64,000 nucleotides of DNA from Ruditapes philippinarum (Eukaryota): positions 1-64,000 of the forward strand of contig NW_026863539.1 of the NCBI RefSeq assembly GCF_026571515.1, written 5' to 3'. Both the position numbers and the translations under genes were made by a program. The notes below the pieces were generated by a model, which saw nothing but the letters and a program-made list of their open reading frames with translations, was not told the origin of the DNA and searched no databases. Each line of letters begins with the position of its first letter. Position 1 is the stretch's first letter. Below are positions 11,435 to 63,951 of the stretch, piece after piece.

Positions 11435-11467
11435 CTTTATGTTGTTGATGTTAGTCTTTTACAATTA

Positions 11468-38866: not shown

Positions 38867-41289
38867 ATGAGCGTAATGGTGAATTCGGTGGTGCATATCT
38901 TATTAGCTTCGAGTTTATATGGTAAAATATTTTTTTTTTCCTCGCGTTCTTAAGAGGAGTTTATTCTAATAATGAATATATATATTTTTTTAAAATATGC
39001 TGCTTCTTACAGTAGGCAATAAAAACGCGACAGTCATTTTAAGTGCTTTACGTGTACTCGGAATAAATATAAAAAAAACTACTAGATGGATCATAAATAT
39101 CTTAATCTAAATGAAAGTTATAATCGCGTTTGTCACCTGTAAAAATCATTTGCTTTGAACTATCGTAAACTTATTTTGGAAAAGGAGCTTAAAAAGGAAT
39201 TTTAATACCAATTTAAGTCAATAGTGGTTCTTTAATGTATTTTTGCATATAAATATGATTTCTAAATAATTAAATAATTTAACACAAGAAAATTAGCACT
39301 GATCAACATGTAGATTATTTTTTTATCATGAGAAGGCATAGATTTATTGAAAATCTATTCTTAATTTGTCTTTTCAATATTTTCCTTGTAGCGGCTGTGG
39401 AAGCAAACAGTTCTGAACCAAAGCCAAGAAAGGTAAATATGTATTTTTTTATTTACTTACTTCAAAGTCAAAGTATCATTTCACTTAATTAGCAGTTTGT
39501 TTTCTGAACATGTGGACCATTTCAAATAATGATTAATTCAACTAAATTTTCGCATTGTGTAATAGTAGGTAGATCTGCAATTTATTAAGGCATAATATTA
39601 AAAGATAAAAACAGTTTTGAAATATTGTTTATTAGTTTAAACAGTTTAAAGCAACAAGTTTTGTATTACATTGTGGTCATTTAAAATCTAAGCTGTATTG
39701 TTCTTTTTCTATTGCGACATATACATGGTCTCTAAATAATTATATGAAACCAAGTTATCTTAATATCAACTTCATATCAAGTTAGTTCAAGTCTATTATG
39801 AATATTGTTCAATGCAATATTTGAAGAAAAAGAAAAACAGACGAAAATGTGGCACCAATGAATGCAGTCCTAGGTGTTTGGGTGCATCTGGCAAAACAGT
39901 ATAACAATGTAGCTCTTAATCTTAAGGAGATATTTTCTTTATCTATTCTTACTATATTTTCATGACTTAAGGCGAACAGATACCTTCTTGAGAAGTGGGG
40001 AAAATGGTATACATTTTGTGACATCAATCATGATGGTGTGATATCTCTGGAAGACCCTAAACATTTTGAGTATGTTCATATACATTACATTTATCAAAAG
40101 TTTATTACGGTCATAAAAATGTCCGAACATATCCAATGCGCGAGATACTTGAAGTTGAAAGCTCAAGCCGGTGCTAAGGGGCGCGAGGTATTTTGCACTT
40201 AATCATTATCCCTAATGTACAGACTTAATCAAACCGATTCTGCAATTTTCATGTTATTTTGTTGTGATTAATGCTTCCGAGGGATCAAAGTTGAAATGAA
40301 AGCATAACAAAATGTGTAGATAAACAATACATTATCCAAAATCAAATTAAGTGTAATCAATGGACTTTTACAGTGTTATGCAAATTATCTATCACACTGC
40401 TACTTTTGGAATATACATAGTTACTGGTTGACATGGTTTTATTTGTAATACTGTCTGTGCGTAGTTGATCTACCAATGGAAAAACGAATAAAAACCTAAT
40501 TTGTTTACTATTTAAAACTGGAAAGTTCCATTAATTTCGCCGCCCTTCAGACATTATGTCAAACTATATATCAGCACAATTTTTCTTGACGATATTTGCT
40601 ATTAAATATCACGTATATAAAGGGAATTTTGTACTTTTCAGCAAAGATCTTTCCCGTAATTATTGTTACAATGTATTTATAGAGAAATATTTTGCAAATA
40701 TCATTTTGTCTATCAGAAAAAGAGATTACCTTACTGTCATGACAATTCATTTGTACTTCAAAAACATATTTTAAAATGTAATCATATTATACTGTAAACT
40801 TTATATACTGTAGCAGATAAAAAAACAAATTTGACTGATATTTTCAACAGGAGTTTTTACAAGGGTTATGATTGCGCAAGAGATGAAAAGCAGAGCTCTT
40901 CATTGGAAACAATGGTTCAACTATGGAAGGCAGTCCATTTATTCAACAACACGGAAATCTCTCAAGCCGAATTTGTACAAACAGTTAAGCAACAATTTGA
41001 ATCAAACAATACCGCTTTCTATGAGTTGGTTCGTGTGTATATGTCTGAATTGAGCAAATTCATAGATTGTAATGCAGACGACCTAATATCAAACGACGAA
41101 TTTCTAACGCTCCTGAACGCTTTGGGACACAACAATACAGCACAAAATGAAAAACAATTCTTTTCCATACCGGATATTAATGGAAAAGTCCCCCCAGCAG
41201 TTGTAGTTGCAAATTTCATGCGCTTTGTATTTGAAAACGACAAATCAAAGCCGGACATTTTCAAAAACTCACTTGATTATGGTATATAA
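38867..41289 (+). CDS. Signal-peptide-bearing sarcoplasmic calcium-binding protein/calexcitin-like EF-hand protein, copy 1
   Basis: Exons 38867-38921 (MSVMVNSVVHILLASSLY), 39392-39432, 39972-40069 (YLLEKWGKWYTFC-DINHDGVISLED), 40851-41289 (EF3 DCNADDLISNDE). Phases 1/0/2 join without stops. AATAAA at ~41356. Confidence 0.9.
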
Positions 41290-41852
41290 GGTTTATACAA
41301 AAGTGTGTGTTTAATTGTGTAAAAGTATATTAGATGTGTAATCTATTATAAGGAAAATAAATATGTTCATGTAAAACAATAATTTCTGTGATTATTTATC
41401 CATCCGTTGATGACATTTTAAATTTATGCAATACCTATATGTCACGGTGCATTCTGTACCTTTCATTTTATTTGGTATGAAGTTGTAAAATAGGGAAAAA
41501 TTGAATCCCGAAAGAAAGCCCCCGAAAAAAATAATAATGGCTGCATTTAATGACCCATATTTCACGCTGTGTTAGACATTTCGGATTTCACCTTGTAACT
41601 CTGAATATAATCAAGTTAAAAAATTTAATTTTTATACCGGTAACTTATTATCAATATTAGAATAATATTTTATACTGTGACCTCTGGAGACTTCTTTAAA
41701 AAGTAATAATTTAATGAAAAATTTCTACTATAAACTTCAATGTAAAAAGAAAACAAATTAATTACTTTCTTTTGAGATTATGACATTAACGTTCGCTTAT
41801 CCGTTTATGTTTTAAGCTGTGCACTAATAATAAGTTATTGAAGTAAGATATC

Positions 41853-42072
41853 ATATGAGCCGCGTCATGACAAAACCAAATTAATGGGTTTGCGACCAGC
41901 ATGGATCCAGACCAGCTTGCACATCCGCGCAGTCTGATCAGGATCCATGCTCTTCGCTATCAGTTTCTCTACTTGTTATAGAGTTTGTAAGCGAACAGCA
42001 TGGATCCTGATCAGATTGCGTGGACGCGCAGGCTGGTCTGAATCCATGCTTGTCGCAAACCCATTATGTTTG
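41853..42072. mobile_element. Foldback (palindromic) MITE-like repeat
   Basis: ~77-bp arms TAATGGGTTTGCGACCAGCATGGATCCAGACCAGC...GGATCCATGCTCTTCGCT / AGCGAACAGCATGGATCC...TGTCGCAAACCCATTA, with few mismatches. Confidence 0.85.
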
Positions 42073-42494
42073 GCGAATACACGAGGACACTTATTGGTCG
42101 TGGGATACTAAATTATACCCAAATGTCATCAAGAGCTTTTATGCATGTGGAAGGAATGGTATTTTTCAGGCTGTAAACGAAATATTTAGAGAGATGACAT
42201 TTGGTGATAGGTAATTTGAATGAATTGTAGTAAGTTTTTTTTCTTTTTGTTAAATTTGAAATTAAAGTCTATCAATTTCAATTTTAATTTTCTTAAAACA
42301 GCCCTGACAATGTCAGAATTGTCAGCAAAAAATAAAATTGCGGTACCATATGGGGAAATCTTTAAAAGTAGTCTCATTGAAAACTGTGTGACTCAATTTT
42401 GATAATTTTCACTGTGAAATTATCAAATATAATTTTCACGGATAAATCAGTAATCCACTCAAAAGCATTGAATAAATTCAAACAATTTTGTTAC

Positions 42495-42760
42495 GCGGAT
42501 GAATATCATTTTAATCAATGAAAATTGCTCGGCTATTTCCGTAAAGCTTCTCGGCTATTTCCGTAAAGCTTCAGATTATTGTGATCGCCTAAATGGATAT
42601 TTGTTAGTTAGACTTTCTGAAAATTAAGTAGGGATGTTGACTCTAGGACATGGAGGTTAGGTAGTCGTTGATCGATAATCAGTTTCTTTCTTGTAAGTTC
42701 AGCACCCGATAATTTAATCCATATAAACAAAGCGCTAATTTTAGCGTATTACACAAAGAG
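42495..42760. repeat. Interspersed repeat, inverted relative to 51150-51385
   Basis: TTAATCAATGAAAAT.GCTCGGCTATTTCCGTAAAGCTTC and GGATGTTGACTCTAGGAC occur reverse-complemented at ~51250-51378. A 22-bp tandem duplication is at 42528-42571. Confidence 0.75.
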
Positions 42761-42814
42761 TAGTGAAATATTATATACATATGAGACGATTTTTTCTAAA
42801 TCATTTCGCAGATG

Positions 42815-43029
42815 GTTTGTTTGTTTGTTTCATTTTACGCCTTTTCAGGCAGTTTTTCAGTCATATAGGCGGGTAGTTTCCTTACTATCGTTCTTGGAGA
42901 GTTACACCAGTACTAGACTACCTTCCTCGGCGCTAAACTACCAAAGCATCTCCCGGGGATCGAACCCACGCCAGAGAGGTAACTGGATTAGAAGTCATCG
43001 ACTCTAACCCCTCGACTATGGAGACGGTA
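42815..43029 (-). mobile_element. tRNA-derived SINE, family 2
   Basis: Reverse complement of 38278-38499. Confidence 0.9.
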
Positions 43030-43373
43030 ACATAACAATTAAAACGACGCGTGACACTTATATATTAGCTCCAACATACATCAATGTTAAACAACAGGTT
43101 TACCATGATACAAACAGTAATTTAGAATAATCTGGTTTGCTTCGGTCTTTTTTCTTATTGCTTCCCCGTGGTCCTGGGGTTACACGCTCGGTTAAGAGTC
43201 GAGAAGTCTGGGGTTCAAATCCCAGCTAAGGCAACTCATATTATATTTTTTCTTTTAAATTGTTTAAACCAAATAAACATTGCATTGAATATCAGTGTTG
43301 CAATTAGCCTTATAGCCAATTTGCTATACAAAACAATTTAGTTTATAATCTGACAACCTTCACCTTTCTTACA

Positions 43374-46300
43374 TTCTGAGACCCAAACAAAATCAGCGCC
43401 TTCTGTGCTTTTTTTTTATTTATAAACTCGAGGCGTCGATTTGTAAGGTTTCAGAGATTTCTTCATTCCCAATACAGTCCACATTAAGTCATTTGGCGTT
43501 GATGATAACGAGGACGCTGATTTGAAAGCTTCAACGTAAAGTTTCCCGAAGAGCACGGTTTGAAAACGTGAACGATAAATGGATTTCCAGTCACCGCAAA
43601 TGCCTCGAAGTATTGCTTATGAAGCTTACGTCGCTGTATAAGGATCTTAAATCCTGATTATTGACGTACACGTATTCCATTTTTGTCGCTCAGACATGAA
43701 TTCAGTTACAGGCTCTGTGGCATTTTTAGGACATACCTCATATATTTATGCAACGTATGCATGTATTTATTAAAAAAATAATGTTACTTCTTGGATTGTA
43801 TAATTTTTATCGGTATGTAGCTTTTAGATTTTCAAAGCAGAGTCCGGCTGCGAACGATTAATTTAAAACGAATTCATACGACAATTGAAAGGCGGTTTTT
43901 TTAATAAAATCAATGTGCTTTCAGATCTAATCATTAACATTTACTTTTGAATGATTAACTTGACAATGTCAAGCTTTCCACTGAAAGAAAACATATAGAA
44001 CAGGTGTTTCTTACAAATAATATCATTTATAAAAGATATAAATTCAACAGCAAAATAAACTGTTTGCTGGTGACATTAAAAGTATACGTAAAGAACCATG
44101 AGATAAAGGTACAAAGCATGTTGTATATTAATATAGTGTTAATACACCTTTTGCTGCACCTGCGCAGACGCACGAAGACACATTTTAAGCCCGAGCTCGC
44201 AGGACATTATAATAAATTAATAAATAATATATTAGTAAGGTGTATTAATGCTGTTCTCGCAAAAAAGTATGCGTCAAATTCTGCATCTAATAATGCAATA
44301 AATGCAATAATAATGATACTAATGATAATATGATTATCATTATTTCACTGATCAGAGTGTATTAACGCTGTTAAAAGCATAAAAGTATATACGTCAAATT
44401 CGAAAATTCAACGTTTCATTATCCGTATGCCTTTTATGCGCTAGTGCGATGTCATTTGACTTTTTGCCTTTTGTTTTGATTATGGAACTAACGGGGCCCT
44501 TATTGCGATAAGTTAATTTTATAAGGTGTTTTTGGCCAGGCATAAACAAAACGTTTAATTAAGGCAGTCGTGTATACATGCGTGCGCAGCTGTTTTGCCT
44601 CAATTACAATTTCAAAGTTTTTTTTTTCAAGTGGAACGCATTCTTCATTTTTGTAATTTCACATATCAAAGTGATTGATATATTGTAACAATATTTAATC
44701 CTGCATAAAATCTCTACAAGTATTATGCATAATATATCACTTTATCCCTTTTATATTTAAGTAATCTGTATAACAATTAAGAAAGATCCAATAGATAATG
44801 AGATGGAACGACGGTTAAATACGAGTACACTCATTAACAACAGCATAATGAACAGATGTGTTGTGTTTATAAAGCTGTTTTAACCACCGACCCCTCTGTA
44901 AACAAGCTAGATAGCTTCCTGACATATAAGAATCCAAAGGACCTGGCGGAACAGCTGCTCGAATCTGTCCTCAACATCAAAATCATGATATTTCCAAAAC
45001 AGTTTAACGATATGAATAACAGTTTAATAATTTGAAGACTTATAATGTAATTCTAAACAGATTGGAATTATATTTGATGTTGTAGACACATCTGTTCTCG
45101 CAAATGCAGGTAAATGTTAATACAGATTCACGAAATATGCGTCATTCAATGTATGGTTTACGAAGAAACACGTTTGCTTGATTTTTATAATGTCGTTGGC
45201 TATACGTCTTTAGATCTTGCGTCTAAAATGAATTTCAGCTGCAAGACTTCAAACACGTAATTAGTAAGTAAAGCTAATATATGTAATAGACTGTTGTAAT
45301 GTTGAACAATATTTAAACATGAACATCAGCTTCATTAGGATGATGGTGAATTTGGTGGTGCATGTCTTATTAGCTTTGAGTTTATATGGTAAAACATATA
45401 TCTTCTCTTCACGTTCTTAAGAGGAGTTAATTTTAATGAGGAATTTTTTTTATATATGTTGCTTCTAAAACGCGACAGTAATTTAAAGTGCTTTATGTAC
45501 ACTCGGAAGAAATATAAAAAACTACTAGATGGATCATAAATATCTTAATCTAAATAAAAGTTATAATCGCGTTTGTGAACTGTAAAAATCATTTGCTTTG
45601 AACTACCATAAACTTATTTTGGAAAAGGAACTTAAAAAGGAATTTTAATACCAATTCCAGTCAAAAGAGGTTCTTTTATGTAATTTTAGATATTAATATG
45701 ATTTCTGAATAATTAAATAATTTAACACAAGAAAATTAGCACTGAACAATATGTAGTTTATTTTTTATCATTAGAATGGATAGATTTATTGAATATCTAT
45801 TCTTAGTTTGTCTTTTCAATATTTTCCTTGTAGCGGCTGTGGAAGCAAACAGTTCTGAACCAAAGCCAAGAAAGGTAAATATATATTTGTTTTGTTGATT
45901 TATTAACTTCATAGTCAAAGTATCATTTCACTTGATTAGCAGTGTGTTTTCTGAACATGTAGACCATTAAAATTAATGATTAATTCAACTAAATATTCAC
46001 ACTGTGAAATAGCAGGTAGATTTGCAATTGATTATGGACTAATATTAAAAAGGAATTAGTTTTGAAAAATTTTAAGCTACATGTTTTGTATTACATTGTG
46101 GTCATTTAAAATCTAAGCTGTATTGTACTTTTTCTATTGCGACATATACATTGTCTCTAAATAATTACATGAAACCAAGTTATTTTAATATCAACTTCTT
46201 TTCAAATTAGTTTGTTCTGTGCAATATTTGAAAAAGAAAAATATCAGACGAAAAGGTGGCACAAAGGAATGCAGTCATAGGTGTTTGGATGCATCTGGCA

Positions 46301-48452
46301 AAACAGTATAAAAATGTAGTTCTTAATGTAAAGGAGATATTTTCTTTATATATTTTTACTATATTTTCATGACTAAAGGCGAACAGATATCTTCTTGAGA
46401 AGTGGGGAAGATGGTATACATTTTGTGACATCAATAAAGACGGAGTCATATCTCTGGAAGACCCTAAACATTTTGAGTATGTTCGTATACATCATATTAA
46501 ACGGAAGTTTATTACGGTCATAAAAATGTCCGAACATATCCAATGCGTAAGATACTTGAAGTTGAAAGCTCAAGCCGATGCTAGGGGCGCGAGGGATTTT
46601 GCACTTAATCATTATCCCTCATGTACAGACTTAATCAAACCGACTCTGCAATTTTCATGTAAATTTGTTGTGATTAATGCTTCCAAGGGATCACTTTAGT
46701 TTTTATACATGAAGTTGAAATGAAATCGTAACAAAATGTATAGATAAACAATACATTATCCAAAATCAAATTAAGTGTATTCAATGGACTTTTACAGTGT
46801 TATGTAAATTATCTATCCCACTGCTACATTGGGATTATACATAATTACTGGTTGGCATGGTTTTGTTTGTAATACTGTCTGTGCGTAGTTGATCTAGAAA
46901 TGGAAAAAAAAAGAATAAAACCCTGATTTGTTTACTTTTTAAACTGGAAAATCCATTAATTCCTCTGCCCTTCAGACATTTTGTCAAACTTTATATCAGC
47001 ACAATATTTATTGACGATATTTGCTATTTAATATCACGTATATAAAGGAAATCTTGTACTTTTCAGCAAAGATCTTTCCCGTAATTATTGATATAATTTA
47101 TTTAAAGAGAAATATTTGCAAATATCCACTTTTGTCTAGAAGAAAAAGAGATTACCATACTGTCATTACAGTTCATTTGTACTTGAAATATATTTTATAA
47201 GGTAATCATATTACACTTTAACCTTTATTATTCTGTAGCAGATTAAAAACAAACTTCATTGATATTTTCAACAGGAATTTTTACAAGGGTTATGAATGCG
47301 CAAGAGGCGGAAATCAGAGCACTTCATTGGCAACAATGGTTCGCCTATGGAAGGTAGTCCATTTATTCAACAACACGGAAATCTCTCAAGCCGAATTTGT
47401 ACAAACAGTTAAGCAACAATTTGAATCAAACAATACCGCTTTCTATGAGTTGATTCGTGTGTATATGTCTGCGTGGAGCAAGTTCATAGATTGTAATGCA
47501 GACGACCTAATATCAAACGACGAATTTCTAACGCTCCTGAACGCTTTGGGACACAGCAATACAGCACAGAATGAAAAACAATTCTTTTCCATACCGGATA
47601 TTAATGGAAAAGTCGCACCAGCAGTTGTAGTTGCAAATTTCATGCGCTTTGTATTTGAAAACGATAAATCAAAGCCGGACATTTTCAAAAACTCACTTGA
47701 TTCTGGTATCTAAGGTTTACACGAAAATGTGTTTAAATGTGTAAAAGTATATTAGATGTATATTCTATTATGAGGAAAATAAATATTTTCATGTAAAACA
47801 ATGATTTCTGTGATTATTTATCCATCGGTTGATGAAATTTTGAATTTATGCAAAACTTGTATGTCACGATGCATTCCGCTTGTTACTCGTACCTTTCATT
47901 TTATTGTGTATGAAGTTGTAAAATTGAGAGAAACAGAATCACTGAAGGATGCCCCTCACCCACCCACCCCCAAAAAAATAAATAACACGGTGCAATCCGC
48001 TTGTTACTCGTACCTTTCACTTTCTTGTGTATGAAGTTGTAAAATAGAGAGAAACAGGATCACTAAAGAATGCCACCCCCCCCCCCCCGAAAAAAAATAA
48101 ATGAAATAAAAAAATAAAATAAATAAATAAAAAATGCTGCATTTAATGATTTATAATTCACGCTGTGTTAGACATTTCGGACTTCACCTTATTACTCTTA
48201 TTGAAATCAAGTTAAAAAATTTAATTTTAATACTGGTAACTTAGAATTAATATAAGAATAATATATTCTATACTGTGACCTCTAGAGGCTTCTTGAAAAA
48301 GCTATAATTTAATGAAAAATTTCTACTATAAACTTCATTGTAAAAAAAATCAAATTAATAATTTTCTTTTGAGATTATGACATTAACGATCGTTTATCTG
48401 TTTATGTTTAAAAATCTGCACATATAATAATTTTATTGTTATAAGATATTTC
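43374..48452 (+). repeat. Segmental duplication copy 2 of the EF-hand gene unit
   Basis: Colinear with 27445-27815 plus 35443-41852, without the large transposon and the MITE/SINE. Confidence 0.9.
45319..47713 (+). CDS. Signal-peptide-bearing SCP/calexcitin-like EF-hand protein, copy 2
   Basis: Exons 45319-45388 (MNISFIRMMVNLVVHVLLALSLY), 45834-45874, 46379-46476 (DINKDGVISLED), 47275-47713. Intact and close paralog of copy 1. Confidence 0.9.
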
Positions 48453-49415: not shown

Positions 49416-49543
49416 TTATGATGATGATGATGAAGATGATGATAATGTTGGAGGTGGTGGTGTTGGTGATGATGATGATGATCAGGATAATGACGACGAT
49501 GACGTCGACGACGACGACGATGATGATGATGATGATGATGATC
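49416..49543. repeat. (GAT/GAC)n microsatellite
   Basis: Direct reading; explains the poly-Asp ORF 49396-49674. Confidence 0.85.
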
Positions 49544-49791
49544 AATTTACACAACTAATCATGAGTTATCTCTGTCTAATGATAAAAGGTATGATAACAA
49601 AACAGATAAGAAAACACATGTTACTAGTTCAACATTACCAAATAATTGTTTTATTGTCACACAAAAACATATGAGTTTTGCCTTGTCAAATTTAATTGTT
49701 TTGTATTATTTCGACAATTTCATTTTCTGCACAAATGTAACGGAAATGTAGATGTGCACATTTCTATTATGTTTTTCTTATGTGTATAAAT

Positions 49792-50196: not shown

Positions 50197-52596
50197 ATAA
50201 ACAAATGTAAATATTAACAAAGAACGAAGGAAAACTCGTTAAATAGCTACCATCAGTATTATCATAACAGGTGATACTCATTTACAAACATGAACACACC
50301 TGCAAATACATTTGAATTACAAATACATTAAAAAATGAAAATGGAACATTAGAAATAAAGTAAAAACCTTAAAGAATTTAATACTGACAACACTGATCAA
50401 ACTGTAATATTAGTATTAATTAAGCCTTATGCATGGTAATGTTATACAAAATATAACTGCAATATGCAGATCAGAAACTAACTTCCAAGCTTTAGCACCT
50501 CGCTCAAAATTGTCAGTTAATATTTGTCCTTGCTTGCATGCACGAACAATATTTGTAATGTATTTTGTTAAATAGCCCGCAGTAGTATATTCTTACTAGA
50601 ATCAAAGGGATGCGAGCTCTTGTGGTATATTCCGATTTCTGCAATGTAAATCGTACTGTATACCTGTATGTATTTTGCTGAATAAGTTTATTTTGAAATA
50701 CTAAAATTCACCGAGTTGCAGCGACTGCGTTTAGAATTTTGCTTTAACGGTTTGAGTTTGATACATACGGAATTTTGCATGACAAGAGTTTCTACTTGCA
50801 TCATGAAATCATTTATGTTCATTTTTATGACACCCACACTTTATCCTTGCATATACTGGCTAATTCTTATAAAATCGCTAAAACAATATAGTTGCCACGA
50901 CTAAAATTTGAACTCCTCTCACATTGTAAACGAGCGTGTAACCCCTCGGCCACGGTGATGTTATAAAACCATATTATTCTTAATTTAGAATCTCAATTTA
51001 TGGTTTGTAATTCTCATTAATTTCTAGGTTGACCTGTTGTTTATCGCTAATGTTAATGTTTTGGCGAAAATCTTCTGTACTTTAAATATTTCACTACTCG
51101 CCAGTGAGATTTATTTGTGTAATACGCGCAAAAGTATTCGGTATTCGACAGCGCTAAACAAGCATTTTGTTTACGTGGATTAAATTTTCGGGGGCTTATC
51201 TTATGGTAGAAATTGATTATCGATCGTCGACTGCCCTAAATTTGTCCCCGTCCTAGAGTCAACATCCTTACTTTATTTTTCATAAAGTCTTAATACCTGT
51301 TCATTCAGGGGCGTTTAATTCCGATCACAAAAATTCGAAGCTTTACGGAAATAGCCGAGCCATTTTCATTGATTAAAATTATTTTCATCAGCGTATTTTT
51401 TTTGTTGTGCATTTATTGACAATTCAATAATCCAAAGCTACTTCTAAACTATGGATACGTGCTTATTTGATGGATACTTGTAACAAAATAAAAAAAATCT
51501 TTCTTTACAATCGCTAGTTTTAAGCTGTTTTGAGAACTACTTGTTGTTAGGTTTCTCGGTAAAAATTGTGCCTAAGGTTGATTGTCAGCTTTGTATTTCC
51601 TGATCTGCGATCAGAAAATACAAAAAGTGGCAAAATATAGTATGATTTAGTCACTAAAAACCAAGCTCCACATTTGAAAGGCATAATCCTATTTTTTCAA
51701 TCTTTTTGTATTAGATTGATGTTGCTAGCATTACTCATTATGGCTGTGAAAGGTAACTCTGTGAAGTTAAAAAGGTTTCTTACAAAATCTTAATCAAATA
51801 TTTATATTGTTTTTGATTAAAGGAACATTAAGGCCCAGAAACGTTATTTTTTCTCATTATGTAAAAAGAATATATGTATATGTTTTATAATGTTGATATA
51901 ATTAATTTAGAATATATGAGGTTCATCTGAAGAAAAGAGCGTTATGTGTGGTAGTTGGCACAATTGAAAGAGACCGGCTTTTTTACTTCCAAAGAAAGCG
52001 GTTTATAAATCACTATATAGCAATACTTATAGCAAAACCAAGAATCTATAGATAGTTCCGTTTTATGGCCAGTCAGATACATCTTGGAAATTGTAACGGT
52101 ATACATTAAAATAATTGGTTATTAATTCTCTTATCAAGTTTCTTTTGCATATGAATCTTAATTAGTATTTAGTGTAATCATGATTTTCATTTTGCAATGC
52201 ATACATTTTCACCTTAAGTAGTGCAGTTACGGATTGACTCTTTATATAATTTTAAGGAGTTAACCCGTTACTGCACTAAGTTGACGATATTCCATACAAT
52301 GGAATCTCAATATGTTTTACTCACAGTAAAGAAAAAAAACACCTTTAAAATTTCTTGTGTATTTTTATGAAAGACAATATTTTATGCACTACATGTTTTG
52401 GTTGTTTTATCATAGTTGAAGTACTGAATATTTAAAAAAAAAATCTTTAGTGGTATATTGGAACAAAACGTGTTCGCAAGTGAAGTGCTCGTATAGATTC
52501 CTCTACAGTTAAGCGATATTGATAAAGAAATAGTGAGTGGGAGATAAAGAGAATAAGTTTAGTTGTATACATTTGTTAATGAAGGACATAGTCGAC

Positions 52597-55481
52597 ATGT
52601 GTCTAATACCTTATATTACGGCCAATATCTTACTGGCTTTAATTTGCAATGGTAAGTAATTTCTTCTTTTAACAAATCCGGTGCTATCGTCTGTCTGTGA
52701 AGCGTTATGAGCCATAGAAATCATAAACTTGTCAATTCAGATAAAACAATTTTCGACATGTACATTGTTACATTGTTTTTCGTTTTGTAAAAACCACAGG
52801 ACGTTTTTAACACATATGTTATCCAAGATTAGAAGAAGACACCGAACCATATGTCAGTTCTTATTTGGAATTTCGCTTATTTAATTGTTATACAACTTAG
52901 TAATGATTTGCGTTAAAAAGTCTTAAATCAGCACGCCTCACGATTCATGTTAAGTTTCATGAAAATTTTGGAAATATAATTTTTAAATTAAAAGTAAAAT
53001 ATTGTGAGATGGACAAATAAAGCAATTTACATATTGCAATCGGCACTTACAATCCAAGAAAATGACCAAAAAGTGGTCACACATTGCAAAAACAGCCCTC
53101 ACTGCATTAATAACGCAGTAGAAATATGGTGATTTAATACTGCAAAAGATGTCTTTAACCATATATAACATGTAAAATATTCCTTGGGTCTTAAATTAAT
53201 TTTTACCTTTCTTAAAATTTTAGTACATTTTTCTCAAGTTTGATTTTCCTGAAATATGTTGGCTCATCTAAAGACGTGCAGCTTTAAAGATGAACAGTTT
53301 CAAGTTGTTTTCAAATTTCATTTTTCTTTTTACTTCTAAAAGCTGCTGCGGTTTCTGTTCTGTCCGAACCAGAGGATGGAAAGGTAAATATAACTAAATT
53401 GTTAAAGGGAGACACACGCAAAATTTAATAATTTCTTCGTTTTGAATGTTTTATTCATTATTCTGTAAATGTCCACAAAATTGATACAACATGCTTAGGC
53501 TATAAAAATGTCTTTTTAGCGTAATATGAGTACATGAGATCATTTTAATATTTTTGTCATTATTTTGCCTGAGTATCCCTGTCTATCAATAGACAATACA
53601 TAAAAGTTATATTGCTGTAACGTTAGTTACATAGGGGACCTGTGTTATGCTTTCATACTTTTCTTGAGTAGATAAAAAATGATAGGGTCACTTGGAGGCT
53701 GACACTATGTTTATGTCTCGTACTCAAGTGTAAAATAGATTTATTTATTTCACCATCAAGCTGAAGTCAGATTTCTGTACACAATGTAACTTGATGTTCA
53801 ATTGTCTGACTTGATATTTAGAATACATTGAATTATAAAAGCCATTAATACACTTGTTACTATATATAGTACAGAAATTGCCTATGATTTCAACTGATTA
53901 TGAGTGTCACGTGACTATTATGAGTTTGCAGCCCGGGGCCGAGAACTAGTTATCAGCCCGCAGAACATGTGCACGTGCACAAACTGAAACAATGACGTCA
54001 TATTTTACGTCATCAAACAGTAAACGGTAAAAGTGAAAGTAGGTTGTCAGCACGAATCGCTTTATTTCTATTATGAGAGTCAAGCGTATTAAGTACAAAC
54101 ACATTTTTGTTACTGTTGAAATTTGAAGAAATAATACGACAAATTCATCCCGAAAAAAAATGAAAATAAAACTTGCTTCTAGATTCTACTGCTTTGAACA
54201 CACAAACAGTAAACGTCTCTGTACAGAACAGTAGAAGAGTAGACAAGAATTTCAACGAAAGAACTTCAAAGTATTTGTTGTTGTTTTTTTGTTTTGTTTT
54301 TTAAAAATGCTACTTTTAGATCTACCAAGTGTATTAAAGACATTAATACACGTCAGAGTAGGGCCGGAAGGTGATAATCGACCCTGAATGAATAATGGCA
54401 CTCGGGCTAAAGCCCTCGTGTCCATTATTCATTTTGCGGGCCGATTATCACCTTCCGGCCCTCTCCTGTCGTGTATTAACCTCTTATTTATTATCTTCAG
54501 GCAAGCAGTTACCTTATTGGAAAGTGGAGACTTTGGTACACCTTTTTCGATGTTAATTATGATGGGGTCATATCTATTGACGAGTTTAAACAATATGAGT
54601 AAGTGTGGAAACATTTCTAATCAAAAGCATCTTTTTTTTAAAAAAAATGGGCAATACTGTATCTCTGAATAAGAAAAATGGCTAATGGCAATACCATAAT
54701 TGTCGAGCAATTTCTGCAGTTTCTTCACAAGTGCTTATTTCACACTGAGAGCTTTTCAAAGTATCTTAATTGTTCCGTACTAAATACATGTGTAGTAAGT
54801 AGCGTTACGTGTCGTCATGTAATAATTCGTCTTTATATAGGCGTATTGATGGTAAATCAGTATACAGGAAATGTATATAATTAGCATTATTTCGTTTACA
54901 TATTTCAATTTCAATTTATTAATAAGACAATAATAGTTATATTCTGTATCAATTTGTGGGAATGAGCAATTCATCAATATTAGGTGTTGATATTTATAAT
55001 ATTTATCTAAATGCTAAAAAAACCAATATTTTTGTTTATTTTTTCTAGTTTTATATTCGACAAAGGTCTAGATAATGTTAATAATGGACAACTTAAGACC
55101 AAAAAAGTTAGGTTTTTCAAGCTATGGAAGACGGTTGTCTTAAATAACAAGAAAGAAATCTCGAAAGATGAGTTCACAGCATTGATGACGCAAAGATTTG
55201 AAGCTGACAAAACTGGCTTCATTGATATGATAAAAGAATATGAACTGGCATTGTGCAAATTAGTAGACATAAACGGAGATGACTTCATATCAAGAGAGGA
55301 ATTCGTGATGAACCTTTTTGCAGTAGGACACCGTAATAAGACTAAAGAATTTTTTCTCGCCTTTCTGCCTAAAAATGGAAAGATTCACGTACAAAAAATA
55401 ATATCTGAAATTATACGATTTACAACTGAGAATTTTGAGTCAACAGATATTTTCAAAAACGAATACGAATCAGACATATAA
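52597..55481 (+). CDS. Signal-peptide-bearing SCP/calexcitin-like EF-hand protein, copy 3 (divergent)
   Basis: Exons 52597-52651 (MCLIPYITANILLALICN; alternative in-frame ATG at 52579), 53343-53383, 54501-54598 (YLIGKWRLWYTFF-DVNYDGVISIDE), 55049-55481 (EF3 DINGDDFISREE). Same 41- and 98-nt internal exons as copies 1 and 2. Confidence 0.9.
54343..54479. repeat. Long imperfect hairpin ending a repeat in intron 2 of copy 3 (Crypton-like end candidate)
   Basis: TTAATACACG..AG..AGGGCCGGAAGGTGATAATCG / CGATTATCACCTTCCGGCCCT..CT..CGTGTATTAA, with an inner ATGAATAATGG-CACTCGGGCTAAAGCCCTCGTG-CCATTATTCAT stem. Confidence 0.7.
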
Positions 55482-56744: not shown

Positions 56745-56872
56745 TTTTGTTTGATCACACCGACACATTATAGGTCATTTGGCTACGTTCCAGCTTTACT
56801 GGTTGAGGAAGATCTCTTGTGCCCCTCAGTGCATTTTTTTCAGGCACGGACGGGTACCTGAGTAGATCCACC
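56745..56872 (-). mobile_element. SINE family 1 3' fragment
   Basis: CAGCTTTACTGGTTGAGGAAGA...CAGGCACGGACGGGTACCTGAGTAGA matches 11170-11300. Other decayed copies at ~37420-37560 and ~44883-44960. Confidence 0.75.
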
Positions 56873-57094
56873 TACGATACATATCTCACGTACGTAACTG
56901 TAAATATCATAAAAAAACTCATTACTAATGAAACTTTAAACACGAAGGAAAAATATTTCTTAATTATGAAAATAAAATCAAAACCCATGAAGATAAAGAA
57001 CAATGTGTTGCTTTTTCCTAATGAAATGAAAAGGCAAAGCAGATACTTAAGACTGGTGAGGTCATTTCAACATCATCGATTCCCGATTTCTTTT

Positions 57095-57303
57095 TCGTGA
57101 ATTGACTAATTTAATTGAATTCCTGAAGTTAAACTCGTGAATTAGTGAAATTGAATTCGAGAATTCATGAAACTGAAATCGTGAATTCATTAAGCTGAAA
57201 TCGTGAACTCGTGAATTTCGCATGTTGAAAACGTGAATGCACGAAGTTAAAATTGTGAATTCACAAATTCATGATGTTGAAATGTCCCCGCCGATCTTTC
57301 GTA
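57095..57303. mobile_element. Solo end of an IS3EU-type element with a TCGTGAA subterminal array
   Basis: The end reads TACGAAAGATCGGCGGGGAC on the minus strand, versus TACGAAAGACCGGTGGTGAC for the full element. Confidence 0.65.
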
Positions 57304-58084
57304 TTATCGTATTCAGTAAAGACAATGTGAAACCCTGATCAATATACATGCTTTGTGATGCAGTACAATGTATAACAATTATAATAACATAAATGAATTT
57401 ATAAAATGAAACATCTGTCCACAAAACAAGCTTCCCAGAAAATTATCAACAACGAATAAATATCATGTGATCCATTAAAGAATCGTAGGCTATTATTACG
57501 CATTTTAATTCTTTAAACAAAGAACATTGTATAATGCAGATGGTTTGCTTACAAAGTTCGTGATAAATATACATGTATATTATATGATTTCAAAAATACT
57601 GATCATCCTAATGATATTCACGTGGTCAACATGCTTCAGCAGCAGGCCTCCAAATTGTAAAATGATATTCAATATTACTGGCCGTTTAATTCATGAACCA
57701 AAGATGACAAAATATTCTTGTGACATTGACAATAACGGAAATCTAGCGGAGATGTAATTTTAATAATAATGCTTTACTAACTTAATTACAAAAGACAATA
57801 TCAATTAGAAAAAAGTGAAATAACTTTGCAACATGAGTTTAAATATTTAATATAGCAAATGATGCAGCTGAAAATGGCATGAGTAAATACAGGTAGCTAC
57901 AAGAAAAGAATTGATGCAAAACATCAAAAGTGACGCCGAAATATATTTGATCAAGACTTTCACCTTAGTACTTTACAGAACATGTATATTTTTTTAAATA
58001 CCATTGTATGTGACCTTGAGGCTAGGATGATCTGTCTTCTCAAGATGTAAAGACAATTTATAGTCAATTAACCAATTACTTATA

Positions 58085-58490
58085 AGACTCTTTCCATAAA
58101 AGAGAATATTTTTCAGATTTATTTTACCAGATACAGGGATACCGGAGTCATCAGCATATCATGAAAGCTAATTGCTTAGGGTTACAGACATGTCATTGAC
58201 ATATATAAGACATATTAGGGGACCTAAAAAGAACCCCTGGGGGACACCATATGTACTCGGATCAGCCACATCCACCAGTTGCTGTCTTTTAGAGATTAGA
58301 CTTGAACCAGGTAAGAATAACCTATGCCAGATGCTTGAAAATGCATGTGCGGTGTTGTGTGATCAACTGTCTCAAATGTCTTTTGTAAATATAAAGCATC
58401 AATCATACAATACTGCCGTTGTTAATTTCAAACAATCTGTTGAGTGAATCAAACATGATTCAGTTGAAAAACCACTTCTTAACCCTGATC
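58085..58490 (-). mobile_element. Decayed non-LTR retrotransposon (CR1/L2-like) reverse transcriptase fragment
   Basis: Minus-strand remnants in the expected order: SGLRSGFST, LQKTFETVDH, YGVPQGFFLGPLICLIYVNDM, YADDSG, with stops. Confidence 0.85.
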
Positions 58491-60789
58491 GAAACTGCCT
58501 GACCATGACTCGAGTCCATGACCGTCAGAAGACAAACTGGGCTATCCGGCCGGCTACATATGATCTCTAATACAACGTGCCTAAATTACAAGACACAGAC
58601 ACAAGCGCAACAACTTTTTCCACCATTTAAAACAAAATGCCACCATATTAATGTCAGTATAATATGTCATATTAAAACATTTACGTATTATCTTAAAAAA
58701 TATCAAAACTTTTCTTCAAAAGGTCACTATGTTTGCTATTTCATTTTTTTTTATTAAACAAAATATATTATTGAAATTTAAAAGTTAACACATTTCATGG
58801 CATAAGAAACGATACGAATGTTCTTGCTGTGTCGACCTCTTAATCTTGTAGCACTCCAGAACTTATCAAATACTCTTATGTTCTAAACTAATAGTGTAGT
58901 ATTTCCCATTTAATAATTGTATCCTTCTACAATATCGAATTCTGATTGCCTTTGGTCTTTTTGTTGTTCTACTAGCTATCTTATACTGTTATCTTAAAAT
59001 ATTCTTTCATTTGCTTCATTTTCTTCTATTGTCATCTTTGTTTCCCATTATGATTTTAATACCTCCATTGTTGCTGGGTTTTTTTTCAAGTTAATCATTC
59101 TATAAGTAAGCGTCGTTCTTTGTCTTCCCTTGAATTCATTTACTGTCACAGTCATTAAGTCTACATGTTCTCTGCTTCCGTGCATTTTTCTTCTAGTGAC
59201 TCCTCTTTAATTTCCTCAATACTTTAGCTGTCTTTTCTGAAATTACTTTTCTCCTCTTATCTTTCTTTTATCTTCTTGCCTTTGACTCTCCAATCTGTTT
59301 GCCCGCTTCCACTTCACTGTCTTGTTTAACTGTCGCTACATATACCTCTATCATTTCTGTAACTTTTACCTTTACAAAGTTCCTGCTCTTTTCCATATCT
59401 CTTGTTTGTGATCAGTTAAGCTCTCTTTCTGGTTTTTCGATAAATTGTAGTCATATTTATGGGCATGCCCTCTGGTATAAGAATATGAAGAACATTATAA
59501 TCACGCTCCTCACTAGTGCGGCCACGATCTCTTAACCCGGATACATGCATTTTCCCTTGTACCTCTCTTTATATTTTCTTCCTCTTTCTGTATATATGTT
59601 TCCTTTTCATTATTGCCAATACCAACCAACTAATTTTCTTGATGTAAATAATATCGGTGCAGTGTCTTAACTGTACCAACTTGACATGTAATTTCTCAAA
59701 CAGTTATAAGCTAATTCTTTTACTTTCTCTTTCTCATTTATAGTTAAGCTCCTCAAATCTTTCTATCTCATTGTGTGTTTGTTGTCAATGTTGTTGTTGT
59801 TGTCGTTGTTTGTTTTTTGTAGTTTTTTTTTTGGTTTATTTTTGGGCGGGTTTAAGGCGGGGAGGGGCTCGTGTTAAGTTTTGTTTTTGTGTTGATTTGA
59901 CCTAGCAGACCACTTGTTTTTTTTCTTTTCTCTTCCCGGTTCTTCATTTCCGTTAGTTACTGTTTGAAATATATTGGTCCACCTTTGGGTTCATTTCCAA
60001 TTTTAATGCATTTATCGGTGGATGTTTTGAACATGTATTTGGCCATGCCTAAGTCAGAGAAGAAGACGTCAAGCATATGCTGTATGCAGTGAAGTAATTC
60101 AGGTGACAGTTACATGACTAGATAGATGCAAATTTTGACAAAGGGAAACCCGATAAAAAAAAACCTTAACGGACTTCTACATCACAGATGAAAATCTTTC
60201 ATATGCGAACTAGTGACAACAGACTAAATGGTGTTAACTTGATTAAATTCAGTTCAAAATGACAGTGATATCAAACAATCACAGTGGAAAATATACAATT
60301 AAAAAACAAAAACAAAAAACACACACAAAGAATTTATAAATTGATTTATTAACGGACGGAACATAGATGAAACATTATTCATTGCAGTACTGTAATGTTG
60401 AAAATGATAATGTTCAATCACCACAACAAAAATGTGCAATTTGACTGTAAAATCACAAGTTCTAGCAGTCATTAAGGGACACCCATTGAATAATTACTTT
60501 TTCTTTTATACAAAAGTATAATATTGAATTTTGTTCTGTTATAAATAATAACAGATTATTATTAGAATTGGGTGAAATTGATAATGAAATGTTATTGTTA
60601 GGTCATTAGAAATATCATTTTAATTTTGAACAGAATGTAATAAATTTAACATCATTTTTGTCGCAATATTGCTCACATTACTTTGTAGTATATACTATCG
60701 ATAGATCTTTTTCTTACAAAAAAAAACAACATGTTTTCTTGTTGTGTGGTTCCAAAATTCCTACTTGAATAATGTTGAATCACCCTATT

Positions 60790-61045
60790 TTGTTCAGTTT
60801 CGCCCATTGTTTTCTCGTTTAAGGCACACGCTTTTTATTACTTGGGGACCATAAGCCGCTTTTCATGGAATGACATTATTGTGTTTCATTGAAGGTTCCA
60901 TGATAACCGCCGTATGAACACATCTACGGATATTTCTAAATTCAAAATTTTAACTTTTTATGTTTAAATGATAAATTCTGCTTAAGACGGTGCTAGCGGG
61001 CGTGGACGGTGTACCGTCCATGATCAGGCTAAATCAAACCGAGCC
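60790..61045. repeat. Second copy of the 775-1065 repeat
   Basis: Same-orientation alignment by eye. Confidence 0.7.
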
Positions 61046-61508
61046 TTCAACATTTTCAGTTTTGCCGTAATGAGCTCTTTTTTTTTCAGGGATTCTTATT
61101 TTTTAAATTTTTTTTCAGCTCATATTGATATACTTTTTTATACGATGTTTTTGATTGCTTAATTATACATATAACTTCCATAATTCAACACTTTCATTGC
61201 AACGGTTATAAATAAATTATATCGACGCTTATGATGTGGTGTAAATTTAAGGTAGTCTAATTTCACATCTTAACATGGGACTGCATTTTGTATGATTCAT
61301 GAATCAAATGTGTTTAAAAGGCAAAGGCAGGACGCCTTGATAATTCCTGGAAATGTTAACTTAATCAGTTTTGCATAATGTATGTATAATATGACAAAAA
61401 AACAAATGAAATGCTCGTATAAATTGCTGTCCATTTGAGCATTATTTTGTAGACAGGAGAAGCGGTGAACAATTGTTTGCTAGGAAAGATATTTATAATA
61501 TTCGGAAT

Positions 61509-63951
61509 ATGCTTTATGTAACAGTTCTTATCGTATTGGCATTAAGTTGTAGTGGTAAGTAAGTGTTGGGGTTTTTTTTATTAGTAAATTATGAATACAT
61601 TATTGACACACTATCTGAAAATTTAAATCTTGATTGCATCCGAAAAGGCACGATAATTAAGGGAACAGTTTTAAAAAGTCAGGGCTCTGTGGTTCGAGAC
61701 TTACTGTTAGTACCAATGATATTTTTCTCGTTCTTTATTTTGCAGTTTATTTTAAAAGAAATGGCAAACATGCAAACATGCAGCGAAACTCATTAATATA
61801 TATGTTTTGTCTTGTTTGTTTTAACATTTAGTGATTTTAATTCTATTTAATTTTAAATATTAATTCTTAAATAGAGTATATTGTATGAATGCAGATTCAA
61901 TATTGGGTTGACTGAAGATAGCGAAAGAGTTGAATAAAATTATATACTGCGAGTCCCTGGCGAGCATTATTATGTTATTCAACGAGTTCAATATCTAGTC
62001 GAATATAATATAGAAAAAAAATATTGAATGAGTGTAAGTGCAATACTGAATTTATTGCACAAGTTGAATAAGAGGCTCGCATAATATTATTTTATTCAAC
62101 GAGTGCAATAAATTTGGTAATGAACTTACACAAATTTAATATTTTATTTATCACATACCCAAAATAAGGACCGTTTAAAGTGAAATAAGAGTCATTTTTC
62201 ATTGACGCGCCTATAGTTTAACGCTAACATTTAGCGCGTCATTACACTATGTTTGTATAACGCTAATGACGTCAGAACAAAATATATGCACGGCCGTGCA
62301 ATACCATATTTACGGAGTCGCAAAATCGGCACGGGTGTGTGATAAATAGAAATTACTGACATTGTGCTATACCTCCTGAGTATTCTTTTTATGTTCCAGA
62401 ACTTTACTGTTCGTATAATCAGTATGCAATTGACAGGCTAATGAAAATTAACGATACATTTTTACGAAAACTTGTGTTTTATGTCGATGCAGTGTCTGTT
62501 CTTTAGTGTTCAAAAAAAATTCTCATGCTATTTTTTTTTTGTTCAAAAAAAGTTAAACAGAATATTTTTCCTACACATTCATTAATTACCTTTTATTAAA
62601 ATGTTGCATCTTTATTTAAAATAACAATACATCATATACAAAGTCCGTCAGTTTTGCTTGTTCCTTTTATTATGTTTAAAATAAATATTTAAGTATATTA
62701 GTTATTTATAATTACTTATAAACAGCTTTACAAACGGATTGAATCCATGAATTTAAGAATGGAAGATACCAAATATATCAAAGCATTAAAACATTATAGA
62801 CACCATTTCATATAAAGCCGTTCTGCAAACAGTTTTTGACTAAAATATTAGTCTTTTAGAGCCGCAGTGACTTGTAGCACTTGTATTTGTTGTCTCTTCT
62901 ACTTCTACATTTAGGCGTTGATATGTTCATCCGTTCAACACCACCAGAAAGAAAGGTAAATATAACTATACTTCTTACTGAGTAACAAACACTACATTGA
63001 AGTTATAATTCGTTCTGCAATATGTAAAATGAGACAACTTGATGGTTGACAATTGTGGCATTTGCTACTGTGATACAATTTATAACTTATCTTTAAATGT
63101 TCGGGTTACATACTAACACATCTATGAAAAAAATATATTACACTATAAGAATTGTCCTATGATACATACATGCTAATTCATTTCACAATACAATTATATG
63201 CGGCAAATGTCAATGTCTCTGCAATATTGACCTAAGATTTTTGTTAGTTTCCGTAATCCATTTCGATTTTACTTATTGATTTCTAATGATAGGAAAGTTC
63301 TCGATTCTTCATCAAGTTTCGCAAAATATTATTTAAAAAAATCTAAGAGTCTTAAAATCTTATCGCCGGGGCTATTTAGGCACGTGTTGCTTCGGTAACT
63401 TTAAGTAAGACATACGCAGCCATAATTTAAAATCCGTATAATTTACTTCGGAATCCGACGACTAACGGCAAAAGGTCATTGAATATTCAAATGTCTCAGT
63501 TAAATATTGACAAACAATAACGTCTGTTCATACTAGACTTGTGTATTATTCATATATTAAGAAGTATAAATGCTTGTCAGATTGTAGAATGGACAATTTT
63601 TTTTATAGATGTTACCGGAACGCGGCAAATGTGGGATTTTCCGAGCTAATCTCTCGTTACATACAACCTTTTAGCATTAAAGCTTTACAAATACGTCAAC
63701 ACTTATTTTCAAAGATTTAACTGTAAAAGATTGTTTTTATCCCCGGATTTTCTTAGAAAATCCAAAATATTCTTAATTTTGGAGTAAGTATGTAATTGTA
63801 ATTGTCATTATCTGTGTTTTAAACTGTTAAGAAGTACAATTTATTGTCTTCAGGCGAGCAGAAACCTTATTAAAAAATGGGGACAGTGGTATACATTTAG
63901 TGACGTCAATCATGACGAGGTTATATCAGATGATGACTTCGAACAATTTGA
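61509..63951 (+). CDS. Signal-peptide-bearing SCP/calexcitin-like EF-hand protein, copy 4 (3'-partial; last exon outside the window)
   Basis: Exons 61509-61554 (MLYVTVLIVLALSCS), 62915-62955 (41 nt), 63854-63951 (98 nt; NLIKKWGQWYTFS-DVNHDEVISDDD). Same phases as the paralogs. Confidence 0.85.
61900..62347. mobile_element. Non-autonomous repeat in intron 1 of copy 4, related to 22960-23920
   Basis: AACGAGT(T/G)CAATA repeats and inverted TATTTATCACA(T/C)ACCC (~62146-62160 / ~62333-62347). Confidence 0.55.

What the first reader, a model, noticed from the sequence alone, without database searches (positions are those of the whole stretch)
38867..63951. Tandem array of secreted SCP/calexcitin/photoprotein-fold EF-hand proteins
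Seen: four paralogs share exon structure (41- and 98-nt internal exons; phases 1/0/2) and each starts with a hydrophobic leader exon. EF1 and EF3 loops are near canonical, EF2 and EF4 are degenerate. Copies 1-2 have several N-x-S/T sequons. A Trp/aromatic-rich motif (KWxxWYTF; LWK) is conserved. Established: SCPs, calexcitin and aequorin-type proteins share this four-EF fold and are cytosolic; in photoproteins and coelenterazine-binding proteins the fold holds a hydrophobic ligand. Inference: an expanded extracellular family that may act in shell/mucus calcium handling or carry a small hydrophobic ligand such as a pigment or signal.
Basis: partly seen in the sequence, partly recalled or inferred. 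Interest (0 to 1): 0.72.

Follow-up and report, generated by a model that had tools for sequence, protein, structure and literature searches.

The report
Clam calcium buffers rerouted for export
These four neighbouring clam genes are copies of an ordinary in-cell calcium-binding protein that gained two extra front exons predicted to send it out of the cell, and they belong to a family of dozens of such copies that likely bind calcium in a secretion not yet identified.

Summary
Four + strand genes share a four-exon layout; copies 1, 2 and 4 match RefSeq Ruditapes philippinarum proteins letter for letter, and RNA-type contigs show all three splice joints of the copy 1/2 pair. The core is a bivalve sarcoplasmic Ca-binding protein (SCP): best structural match Pf-SCP 9L5M (Z 24.6). 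The EF1+EF3 pattern and the Trp motif are inherited from cytosolic SCPs, so they do not point to a photoprotein-like ligand. New here: the genome gives 76 exon-4 matches. Of 65 genes examined, 44 lack the SCP start codon, and 39 of these carry a shared leader exon, against 0 of 21 that keep it. Leader-bearing copies keep both Ca loops (27 of 29, against 5 of 20). The same leader cassette also sits on cytosolic-type cores elsewhere (two spliced genes, one probable pseudogene), which suggests exon shuffling; one origin is not rejected (AU p=0.076). Secretion is predicted only (no SignalP, no proteomics) and the tissue is unknown. Verdict: a new secreted variant of SCP, likely venerid-specific, probably a Ca-loaded component of a secretion.

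The parts
38867..38921 (+). Copy 1 exon 1: start codon and hydrophobic leader (predicted signal peptide), ends in phase 1
   Evidence: equals RefSeq P0001; joint to exon 2 in run X2
39392..39432 (+). Copy 1 exon 2 (41 nt): end of leader and short linker, ends AAG|GT, phase 0
39972..40069 (+). Copy 1 exon 3 (98 nt): starts exactly at the codon that is Ala2 of cytosolic SCPs; KWxxW helix and EF1
40851..41289 (+). Copy 1 exon 4: degenerate EF2, intact EF3, degenerate EF4, stop; AATAAA at 41356
45319..45388 (+). Copy 2 exon 1 (leader)
   Evidence: equals RefSeq P0004
45834..45874 (+). Copy 2 exon 2 (41 nt)
46379..46476 (+). Copy 2 exon 3 (98 nt, EF1)
47275..47713 (+). Copy 2 exon 4 (EF3, stop)
52579..52651 (+). 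Copy 3 exon 1 (leader; start codon could also be 52597)
   Evidence: model only
53343..53383 (+). Copy 3 exon 2 (41 nt)
   Evidence: model only
54501..54598 (+). Copy 3 exon 3 (98 nt, EF1)
55049..55481 (+). Copy 3 exon 4 (EF3, stop)
61509..61554 (+). Copy 4 exon 1 (leader)
   Evidence: equals RefSeq P0007
62915..62955 (+). Copy 4 exon 2 (41 nt)
63854..63951 (+). Copy 4 exon 3 (98 nt, EF1); exon 4 lies beyond the window at contig 64818-65256
38580..41851 (+). Recent whole-gene duplication unit, repeated at about 45050-48449 (87% DNA identity over 2984 columns; dS 0.116, dN/dS 0.38)

Best explanation
Four tandem, four-exon genes encode a bivalve sarcoplasmic calcium-binding protein core with two intact calcium loops behind a hydrophobic leader predicted to be a cleaved signal peptide, so the proteins are likely exported and likely act as calcium-loaded components of a gland or epithelial secretion. 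Shown: gene structure, splicing of the copy 1/2 pair, fold match to Pf-SCP, loss of the SCP start codon with an acceptor directly before Ala2, and selective retention of EF1 and EF3 ligands. Inferred: an ancestral cytosolic SCP gene acquired a two-exon promoter-plus-leader cassette before Ruditapes and Mercenaria split, the clade then multiplied by tandem duplication, and the cassette was later recombined onto other cytosolic paralogs. Inferred mechanism: the protein loads two Ca2+ in the secretory pathway, stays compact and Ca-saturated in seawater-like fluid, and holds or hands off calcium locally in mucus or organic matrix (Pf-SCP releases its Ca2+ to carbonate in vitro), while its surface drifts between copies.
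For: Fold: AlphaFold model pLDDT 88.4 matches Pf-SCP 9L5M at Z 24.6, rmsd 2.0, 177 aligned; phmmer E 3e-18. Pf-SCP binds Ca at the two equivalent loops and releases it to carbonate (PMC12542302, abstract, introduction and section 2.1). Splicing. Gene classes: 44 of 65 genes lack the start codon at SCP Met1 and 21 keep it; leader exon 1 or 2 profile found upstream of 39 of 44 (23 of 28 not used in training) and 0 of 21. Both Ca loops intact in 27 of 29 main-clade leader genes against 5 of 20 start-keeping genes; 11 of 12 against 3 of 13 after thinning to under 60% identity, at similar mean divergence (44% and 41% identity). No KDEL-type end in the four window proteins and no second hydrophobic run as strong as the leader in their models. 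Leader-bearing relatives in Mercenaria mercenaria (P0010, P0082) group with the clade. Near-zero reads in two raw RNA runs against high contig depth in X1 suggests restricted expression.
Against: No signal-peptide predictor, proteome or binding assay was available; secretion rests on hydropathy and gene structure. Copy 1 has a weak h-region (KD about 2.0). In the Mercenaria cell-free haemolymph and extrapallial proteome, 20 SCP-labelled rows are listed and none has the 190-215 aa length of the leader type (18 are 168-183 aa, one 132, one 247; PMC8902148 Table 1 supplement), so there is no sign of this subfamily in those fluids, though those gene models may lack leader exons. Two Ca2+ per 20 kDa is a poor bulk carrier against the roughly 10 mM Ca2+ of seawater-like fluids (recalled figure), and dozens of diverged copies with median dN/dS 0.50 are more than a simple carrier needs. 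The Ca-loop contrast is not phylogenetically independent.
Confidence: 0.5

Rival explanations
1. Calcium only stabilises the fold, and the family is a diversified extracellular binding repertoire (microbes, food particles, or toxic metals such as Cd, Pb, Mn) in mucus or gut secretions.
For: Large lineage-specific expansion with broken copies; median dN/dS 0.50 in 84 non-independent close pairs against 0.26 in 7 pairs of start-keeping genes; only 12 columns are at least 90% invariant in 27 genes, five of them EF acidic ligands. An SCP-labelled probe fell 25.5-fold in Manila clam haemocytes after Vibrio challenge (PMC4234419, one table passage; paralog not identified).
Against: No pair among the 40 of 84 listed exceeds dN/dS 1 (highest 0.97), so relaxed constraint explains the data as well; variability per 10-residue block is similar in both gene classes; no binding partner is known.
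Confidence: 0.27
2. The proteins are secreted carriers of a small hydrophobic ligand (pigment, signal, luciferin-like molecule), as in coelenterazine-binding protein or juvenile hormone diol kinase, which share the fold.
For: Same fold: 2hq8 Z 16.7, 7pjd Z 18.2, aequorin Z 13.8. Clade-specific core changes exist (Trp to Leu at 89, Trp to Phe at 187, new Trp at 132, polar residue at 152).
Against: Summed side-chain volume at core positions changes by only about -33 cubic angstrom, which fits repacking rather than a pocket; the Trp motif is ancestral; mitrocomin's C-terminal His and Trp align to Phe and Val/Ala (their role in photoproteins is recalled).
Confidence: 0.12
3. The leader routes the proteins into the secretory lumen, where they buffer calcium in ER, Golgi or mucous granules and are not functional outside.
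For: High-affinity EF loops suit sub-millimolar luminal Ca2+ better than seawater (general knowledge); not seen by length in plasma or extrapallial fluid.
Against: No KDEL-type retention signal; expansion to dozens of diverged copies is unusual for a housekeeping buffer.
Confidence: 0.08
4. The leader is not a working signal peptide and the proteins are cytosolic or membrane-anchored SCP variants.
For: No predictor or experiment; weak h-region in copy 1.
Against: Hydrophobic stretch followed by small residues in 13 of 13 proteins inspected from two genera; sequons depleted in start-keeping genes (10 observed, 18.2 expected) but not in leader genes (50, 41.7).
Confidence: 0.03

Closest known systems
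Pf-SCP, Pinctada fucata sarcoplasmic Ca-binding protein (PDB 9L5M; PMC12542302)
   Same: Fold (Z 24.6, rmsd 2.0 over 177 residues, 27% identity), about 180-aa core, two Ca loops at EF1 and EF3, KWxxW helix
   Different: Pf-SCP aligns from its residue 1 to residue 31 of copy 1, so it has no leader, and it is reported inside mantle epithelial cells; the window proteins add a 29-38 aa leader and sequons, and belong to a large expansion
Leaderless SCP paralogs of the same genome and of Mercenaria, Magallana, Mytilus (e.g. P0015, P0018, P0064, P0035)
   Same: Same core and, within this genome, the same phase-2 intron after EF1
   Different: Keep the start codon a few bases behind a splice acceptor, no leader exons (0 of 21), often degenerate Ca loops (both intact in 5 of 20)
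Nereis SCP (2SCP), calexcitin (2CCM, 4NDB), JH diol kinase (7PJD), coelenterazine-binding protein (2HPS, 2HQ8), aequorin/obelin
   Same: Compact four-EF fold, Z 13-19
   Different: 12-17% identity; cytosolic and with other Ca-site patterns (recalled); no evidence here of their ligand pockets or catalysis
Secreted molluscan EF-hand proteins: Hdh-SMP5 (PMC10741955, abstract read) and Pomacea eggshell CaBP (PMC6573481, passage read)
   Same: Precedent for secreted EF-hand proteins in calcified secretions; the Pomacea gene family also shows lineage-specific expansion
   Different: SMP5 is 134 aa, Asp-rich, with three EF regions; neither was compared by sequence here and neither is described as an SCP in the text read

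Membership tests
Bivalve SCP (Pf-SCP type) | Compact SCP four-EF fold over an about 180-aa core | tested here: met
   Model matches 9L5M Z 24.6, rmsd 2.0, 177 aligned; next row 2SCP Z 19.0; Foldseek E 2.9e-10
Bivalve SCP (Pf-SCP type) | Ca ligands retained at EF1 and EF3, EF2 and EF4 degenerate | tested here: met
   All four window proteins keep positions 1/3/5/12 in both loops, matching the two Ca sites of 9L5M
Bivalve SCP (Pf-SCP type) | Sequence homology to named SCPs | tested here: met
   phmmer E 3.1e-18, profile E 1.3e-29 to 9L5M; RefSeq names them SCP-like
Bivalve SCP (Pf-SCP type) | Cytosolic, no signal peptide, starts at Met-Ala-Asn-type N-terminus | tested here: not met
   Start codon absent, acceptor sits directly before Ala2, two leader exons spliced in front. 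Hence a variant derived from SCPs, not a classical member
Bivalve SCP (Pf-SCP type) | Measured high-affinity Ca2+/Mg2+ binding | not testable with these tools
   Needs recombinant protein
Ca-regulated photoproteins / coelenterazine-binding protein | Functional EF4 loop (recalled pattern EF1, EF3, EF4) | tested here: not met
   EF4 region lacks the acidic ligands in 29 of 29 main-clade genes listed
Ca-regulated photoproteins / coelenterazine-binding protein | C-terminal His and Trp of the substrate site (role recalled) | tested here: not met
   Mitrocomin His and Trp align to Phe and Val in the family profile; low-identity alignment
Ca-regulated photoproteins / coelenterazine-binding protein | Buried hydrophobic cavity holding a ligand | tested here: inconclusive
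Calexcitin | Closest sequence and structural affinity to calexcitin | tested here: not met
   phmmer E 0.28-1.5; Z 15.7-16.2 against 24.6 for 9L5M
Classically secreted protein | N-terminal hydrophobic stretch, small residues behind it, no retention signal | tested here: met
   Hydropathy heuristic only; not SignalP
Classically secreted protein | Detected in a cell-free secretion | tested here: inconclusive
   None of 20 SCP rows in the Mercenaria plasma/EPF table has leader-type length; other secretions not found in print
SMP5/IMSP5-type secreted EF-hand shell proteins | Sequence homology to SMP5 | not tested
   Only the abstract of PMC10741955 was read; no sequence was in hand

The most novel reading that the evidence does not exclude
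A portable two-exon export cassette has been grafted more than once onto cytosolic SCP genes in venerid clams, creating a repertoire of dozens of secreted, calcium-locked globular proteins whose diverging surfaces bind different extracellular partners: a lipocalin- or C1q-like expansion built from a muscle-type calcium buffer.
Probability: 0.3. Interest if true: 0.72.

Novelty: new variant of a known kind. Interest (0 to 1): 0.52.

Why it matters
SCPs are treated as intracellular buffers and shellfish allergens. A secreted branch of dozens of genes hides under the same RefSeq name, so clam expression and proteome studies that report 'SCP' mix two protein classes with different destinations. 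The genome also preserves stages of how a cytosolic protein gained export (start codon kept, lost, leader cassette moved between paralogs), which makes the origin of a secreted family directly testable. If the proteins prove to be shell, mucus or gut components they are candidates for clam calcification, acidification response, metal handling and allergen surveys.

Tried and rejected
Pfam gave only sub-threshold EF-hand hits on single exons. Word-index homolog searches found few relatives (3, 6 and 2 proteins), so range outside Veneridae rests on one phmmer scan of 50% representatives (54 hits), of which 20 were looked up for names; no leader-bearing full-length hit outside Ruditapes and Mercenaria was seen, which is not proof of absence. 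Two Mytilus-cluster proteins with N-terminal extensions (P0075, P0079) and P0026 have no hydrophobic leader by inspection. ESM Atlas returned only 170-208 aa EF-hand/SCP clusters. No run listed as a holder was on record as RNA; run labels are coded, so no tissue. RNA check of copies 3 and 4 was not obtained. Idea that the leader exons arose from the 5' UTR exons of start-keeping genes: leader profiles found nothing upstream of 21 such genes, so no support, though non-coding exons decay fast. Idea that ATG-to-AAG created the new acceptor: fits copies 1 and 2 and C6898:125023 by eye but most genes have CAG or TAG acceptors; left as a lead. The careful mixture-model tree did not finish (quick tree used); a careful LG+G4 tree used 34 of 70 rows (36 dropped as long branches or near-duplicates). 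AU test did not reject one origin of leader-bearing cores (p=0.076). Contig C263 and a few exon-4 matches without a fetched exon 3 were not modelled. Literature: nine searches found no paper describing signal-peptide-bearing SCPs or this expansion; most were judged from listings only, and subscription journals are not covered. A snail-mucus 'SCP' is a MASCOT match to a 56-60 kDa band (PMC8050916) and was not taken as a precedent. No complex prediction was run because no binding claim is made.
Full report
1. Observation. Reading the window and building models by coordinates gives four + strand genes with exons of 46-73, 41, 98 and 433-439 nt, GT-AG introns and phases 1/0/2. Copy 4's last exon lies just beyond the window (contig 64818-65256). 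Copies 1, 2 and 4 are letter-for-letter RefSeq proteins of Ruditapes philippinarum named 'sarcoplasmic calcium-binding protein-like'; copy 3 is my model only. Copies 1 and 2 are a recent whole-gene duplicate (87% DNA identity, 89% protein identity, dS 0.116); copy 3 is 38-39% identical to them. Contigs from runs X1 and X2, RNA by the tool's guess, show the three joints and a poly(A) end; two raw RNA runs hold almost no exon reads (one read per joint in X23, none listed in X21). At 90% likeness these records cannot be assigned to copy 1 or 2. No further copy was found on the contig up to 90 kb.

2. What the core is. The best solved relative by sequence (E 3e-18; profile E 1e-29) and by fold (model pLDDT 88.4; Z 24.6, rmsd 2.0, 177 residues; Foldseek E 2.9e-10) is Pf-SCP, 9L5M. 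Nereis SCP follows at Z 19.0, JH diol kinase 18.2, coelenterazine-binding protein 16.7, calexcitin 16.2, aequorin 13.8. The model was built from a 40-row alignment that includes leaderless SCPs. Pf-SCP binds two Ca2+ at the loops that align with EF1 and EF3 here, is found within mantle epithelial cells and releases Ca2+ to carbonate (PMC12542302; abstract, introduction, section 2.1 and search passages read; 'signal peptide' does not occur in it). The two-site pattern and the KWxxW helix are therefore inherited: both Trp are present in 20 of 20 start-keeping paralogs.

3. The family. A search of the own genome with exon 4 gave 76 matches among 94 scored candidates; a search with a leaderless paralog gave largely the same places (81 matches). 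I fetched 63 stretches and found 65 exon-3 hits at score 25 or more. In 21 an ATG stands at or next to SCP Met1, a few bases behind a splice acceptor; in 44 it is absent and in most an acceptor sits directly before the Ala2 codon. DNA profiles trained on leader exons 1 and 2 of 16 genes hit upstream of 34 and 35 of the 44 (either: 39 of 44; 23 of 28 outside training) and 0 of 21 start-keeping genes at E 0.01. Some loci are haplotig duplicates (e.g. C6552 and C9981 identical in the tree) or broken, so the true gene count is lower than the match count. Of 52 cores of 150 aa or more, 29 start-lacking genes, the four window genes among them, form one long-stemmed group with Mercenaria P0010 (SH-aLRT 99, quick tree of 70 rows; 100/100 in a careful tree of 34 rows). 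A second Mercenaria leader protein exists (P0082). Named oyster and mussel hits are leaderless.

4. What is kept and what drifts. Both Ca loops are intact in 27 of 29 main-clade genes and 5 of 20 start-keeping genes (EF1 29 of 29 against 9 of 20; EF3 27 of 29 against 6 of 20); thinning to under 60% identity leaves 11 of 12 against 3 of 13 (relatives are not independent). Five of the 12 near-invariant columns are EF acidic ligands. Median dN/dS is 0.50 over 84 close pairs against 0.26 over 7; of the 40 pairs printed none exceeds 1. Sequons: 50 observed against 41.7 expected in leader genes, 10 against 18.2 in the others. Core side-chain volume is about unchanged (-33 cubic angstrom), with Trp lost at 89 and 187 and gained at 132; this proxy gives no hint of a pocket, but no cavity calculation was possible.

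5. Leader cassette on other cores. On contig C6898, where both gene classes lie mixed, genes 165523 and 172989 carry a leader exon 1 that matches the main-clade profile (E 5e-7 and 1e-8) although their cores are 65-67% identical to start-keeping gene 42761 and 24-32% to the three main-clade genes compared (grouped 100/100). Their predicted introns (1800, 725, 1448 nt) appear as joints in runs X1, X5 and X12, one study, and not in X21. Gene 106106 has leader exons 83-89% identical in DNA to those of 165523 but a core 83% identical to start-keeping gene 178028 and 37-40% to 165523/172989; its exon-1 donor is altered and a stop lies in exon 4, so it is probably a pseudogene. The simplest reading is recombination in intron 2 that moved promoter and leader onto other paralogs. 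The AU test does not reject a single clade of leader-bearing cores (p=0.076), so repeated loss or gene conversion remains possible.

6. How it likely works. Shown: structure of the genes, splicing, fold, ligand retention. Inferred: signal-peptide cleavage near residues 19-24, Ca2+ loading in the secretory pathway, export. I commit to a calcium-loaded component of a secretion (0.5). A Ca-stabilised, surface-diversified binding family (0.27), a small-ligand carrier (0.12), a luminal buffer (0.08) and no secretion (0.03) are the rivals. Against a plasma or extrapallial role: none of 20 SCP rows in the Mercenaria cell-free proteome has leader-type length (PMC8902148, passages and supplementary Table 1 rows read); those fluids also hold cytoskeletal proteins, so reports of 'SCP' in them (also PMC9781830, passages) are no evidence for this subfamily.

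7. Relation to what is known. It works like an SCP in fold and Ca sites but fails the cytosolic criterion, so it is filed as a variant. Secreted EF-hand proteins in molluscan secretions have precedent (Hdh-SMP5, abstract; Pomacea eggshell CaBP, passage), which lowers the surprise. Nine literature searches found no description of signal-peptide-bearing SCPs or of this expansion; PMC13190495, PMC8933548, PMC4234419, PMC13176007 and PMC8050916 were read only as passages (and one section of the last). Three look-ups in the scan's own findings returned nothing on this family.

8. Verdict. Real, expressed (copy 1/2 pair and two grafted paralogs), a new secreted variant of a known family, function not yet placed. 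Interest 0.52.

Noticed in passing
window 3191-20806: Exon-like ORFs with Sushi repeats (3191-3568 +, 19039-19497 -) and Ig-like domains (18135-18608 -); probably parts of one or two Sushi/Ig receptor-like genes.
   Followed up: no
window 33417-34673 (-): Two adjacent frames with integrase core (PF24764 rva_4) and an HTH-like domain; looks like an interrupted transposase/integrase-type mobile element.
   Followed up: no
window 29100-31100: Long Thr/Ala-type low-complexity trinucleotide tract, partly masked; could be a mucin-like exon or a simple repeat.
   Followed up: no
window 40161-40287 and its twin in copy 2 intron 3: Short dispersed repeat inside intron 3 covered by thousands of RNA reads from other loci on both strands.
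   Followed up: no
window 38003-38280 and 38499-38582: Tandem, self-complementary TAACTAGTTA-type 52-nt repeat directly upstream of copy 1, interrupted by a roughly 220-nt element that recurs inverted at 42815-43031.
   Followed up: no
G000:C6898:105000-197000 (L054-L063): Mixed cluster of about 17 SCP genes and fragments of both classes, the likely site of leader-cassette shuffling; many start-keeping paralogs have lost Ca ligands (10 of 20 have neither loop intact), which raises the question of what these do.
   Followed up: partly
G000:C2112:6207 and 35732 (L077, L078): Two divergent leader-bearing copies with the acceptor 9 nt further upstream, a degenerate EF3 and a shortened C-terminus (RefSeq 'uncharacterized', P0030 and P0070).
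   Followed up: partly
P0026, P0075 (Mytilus cluster): SCP core predicted behind a long Thr/Pro/Lys repeat without a signal peptide; may be a gene-model artefact or a separate N-terminal gain.
   Followed up: no
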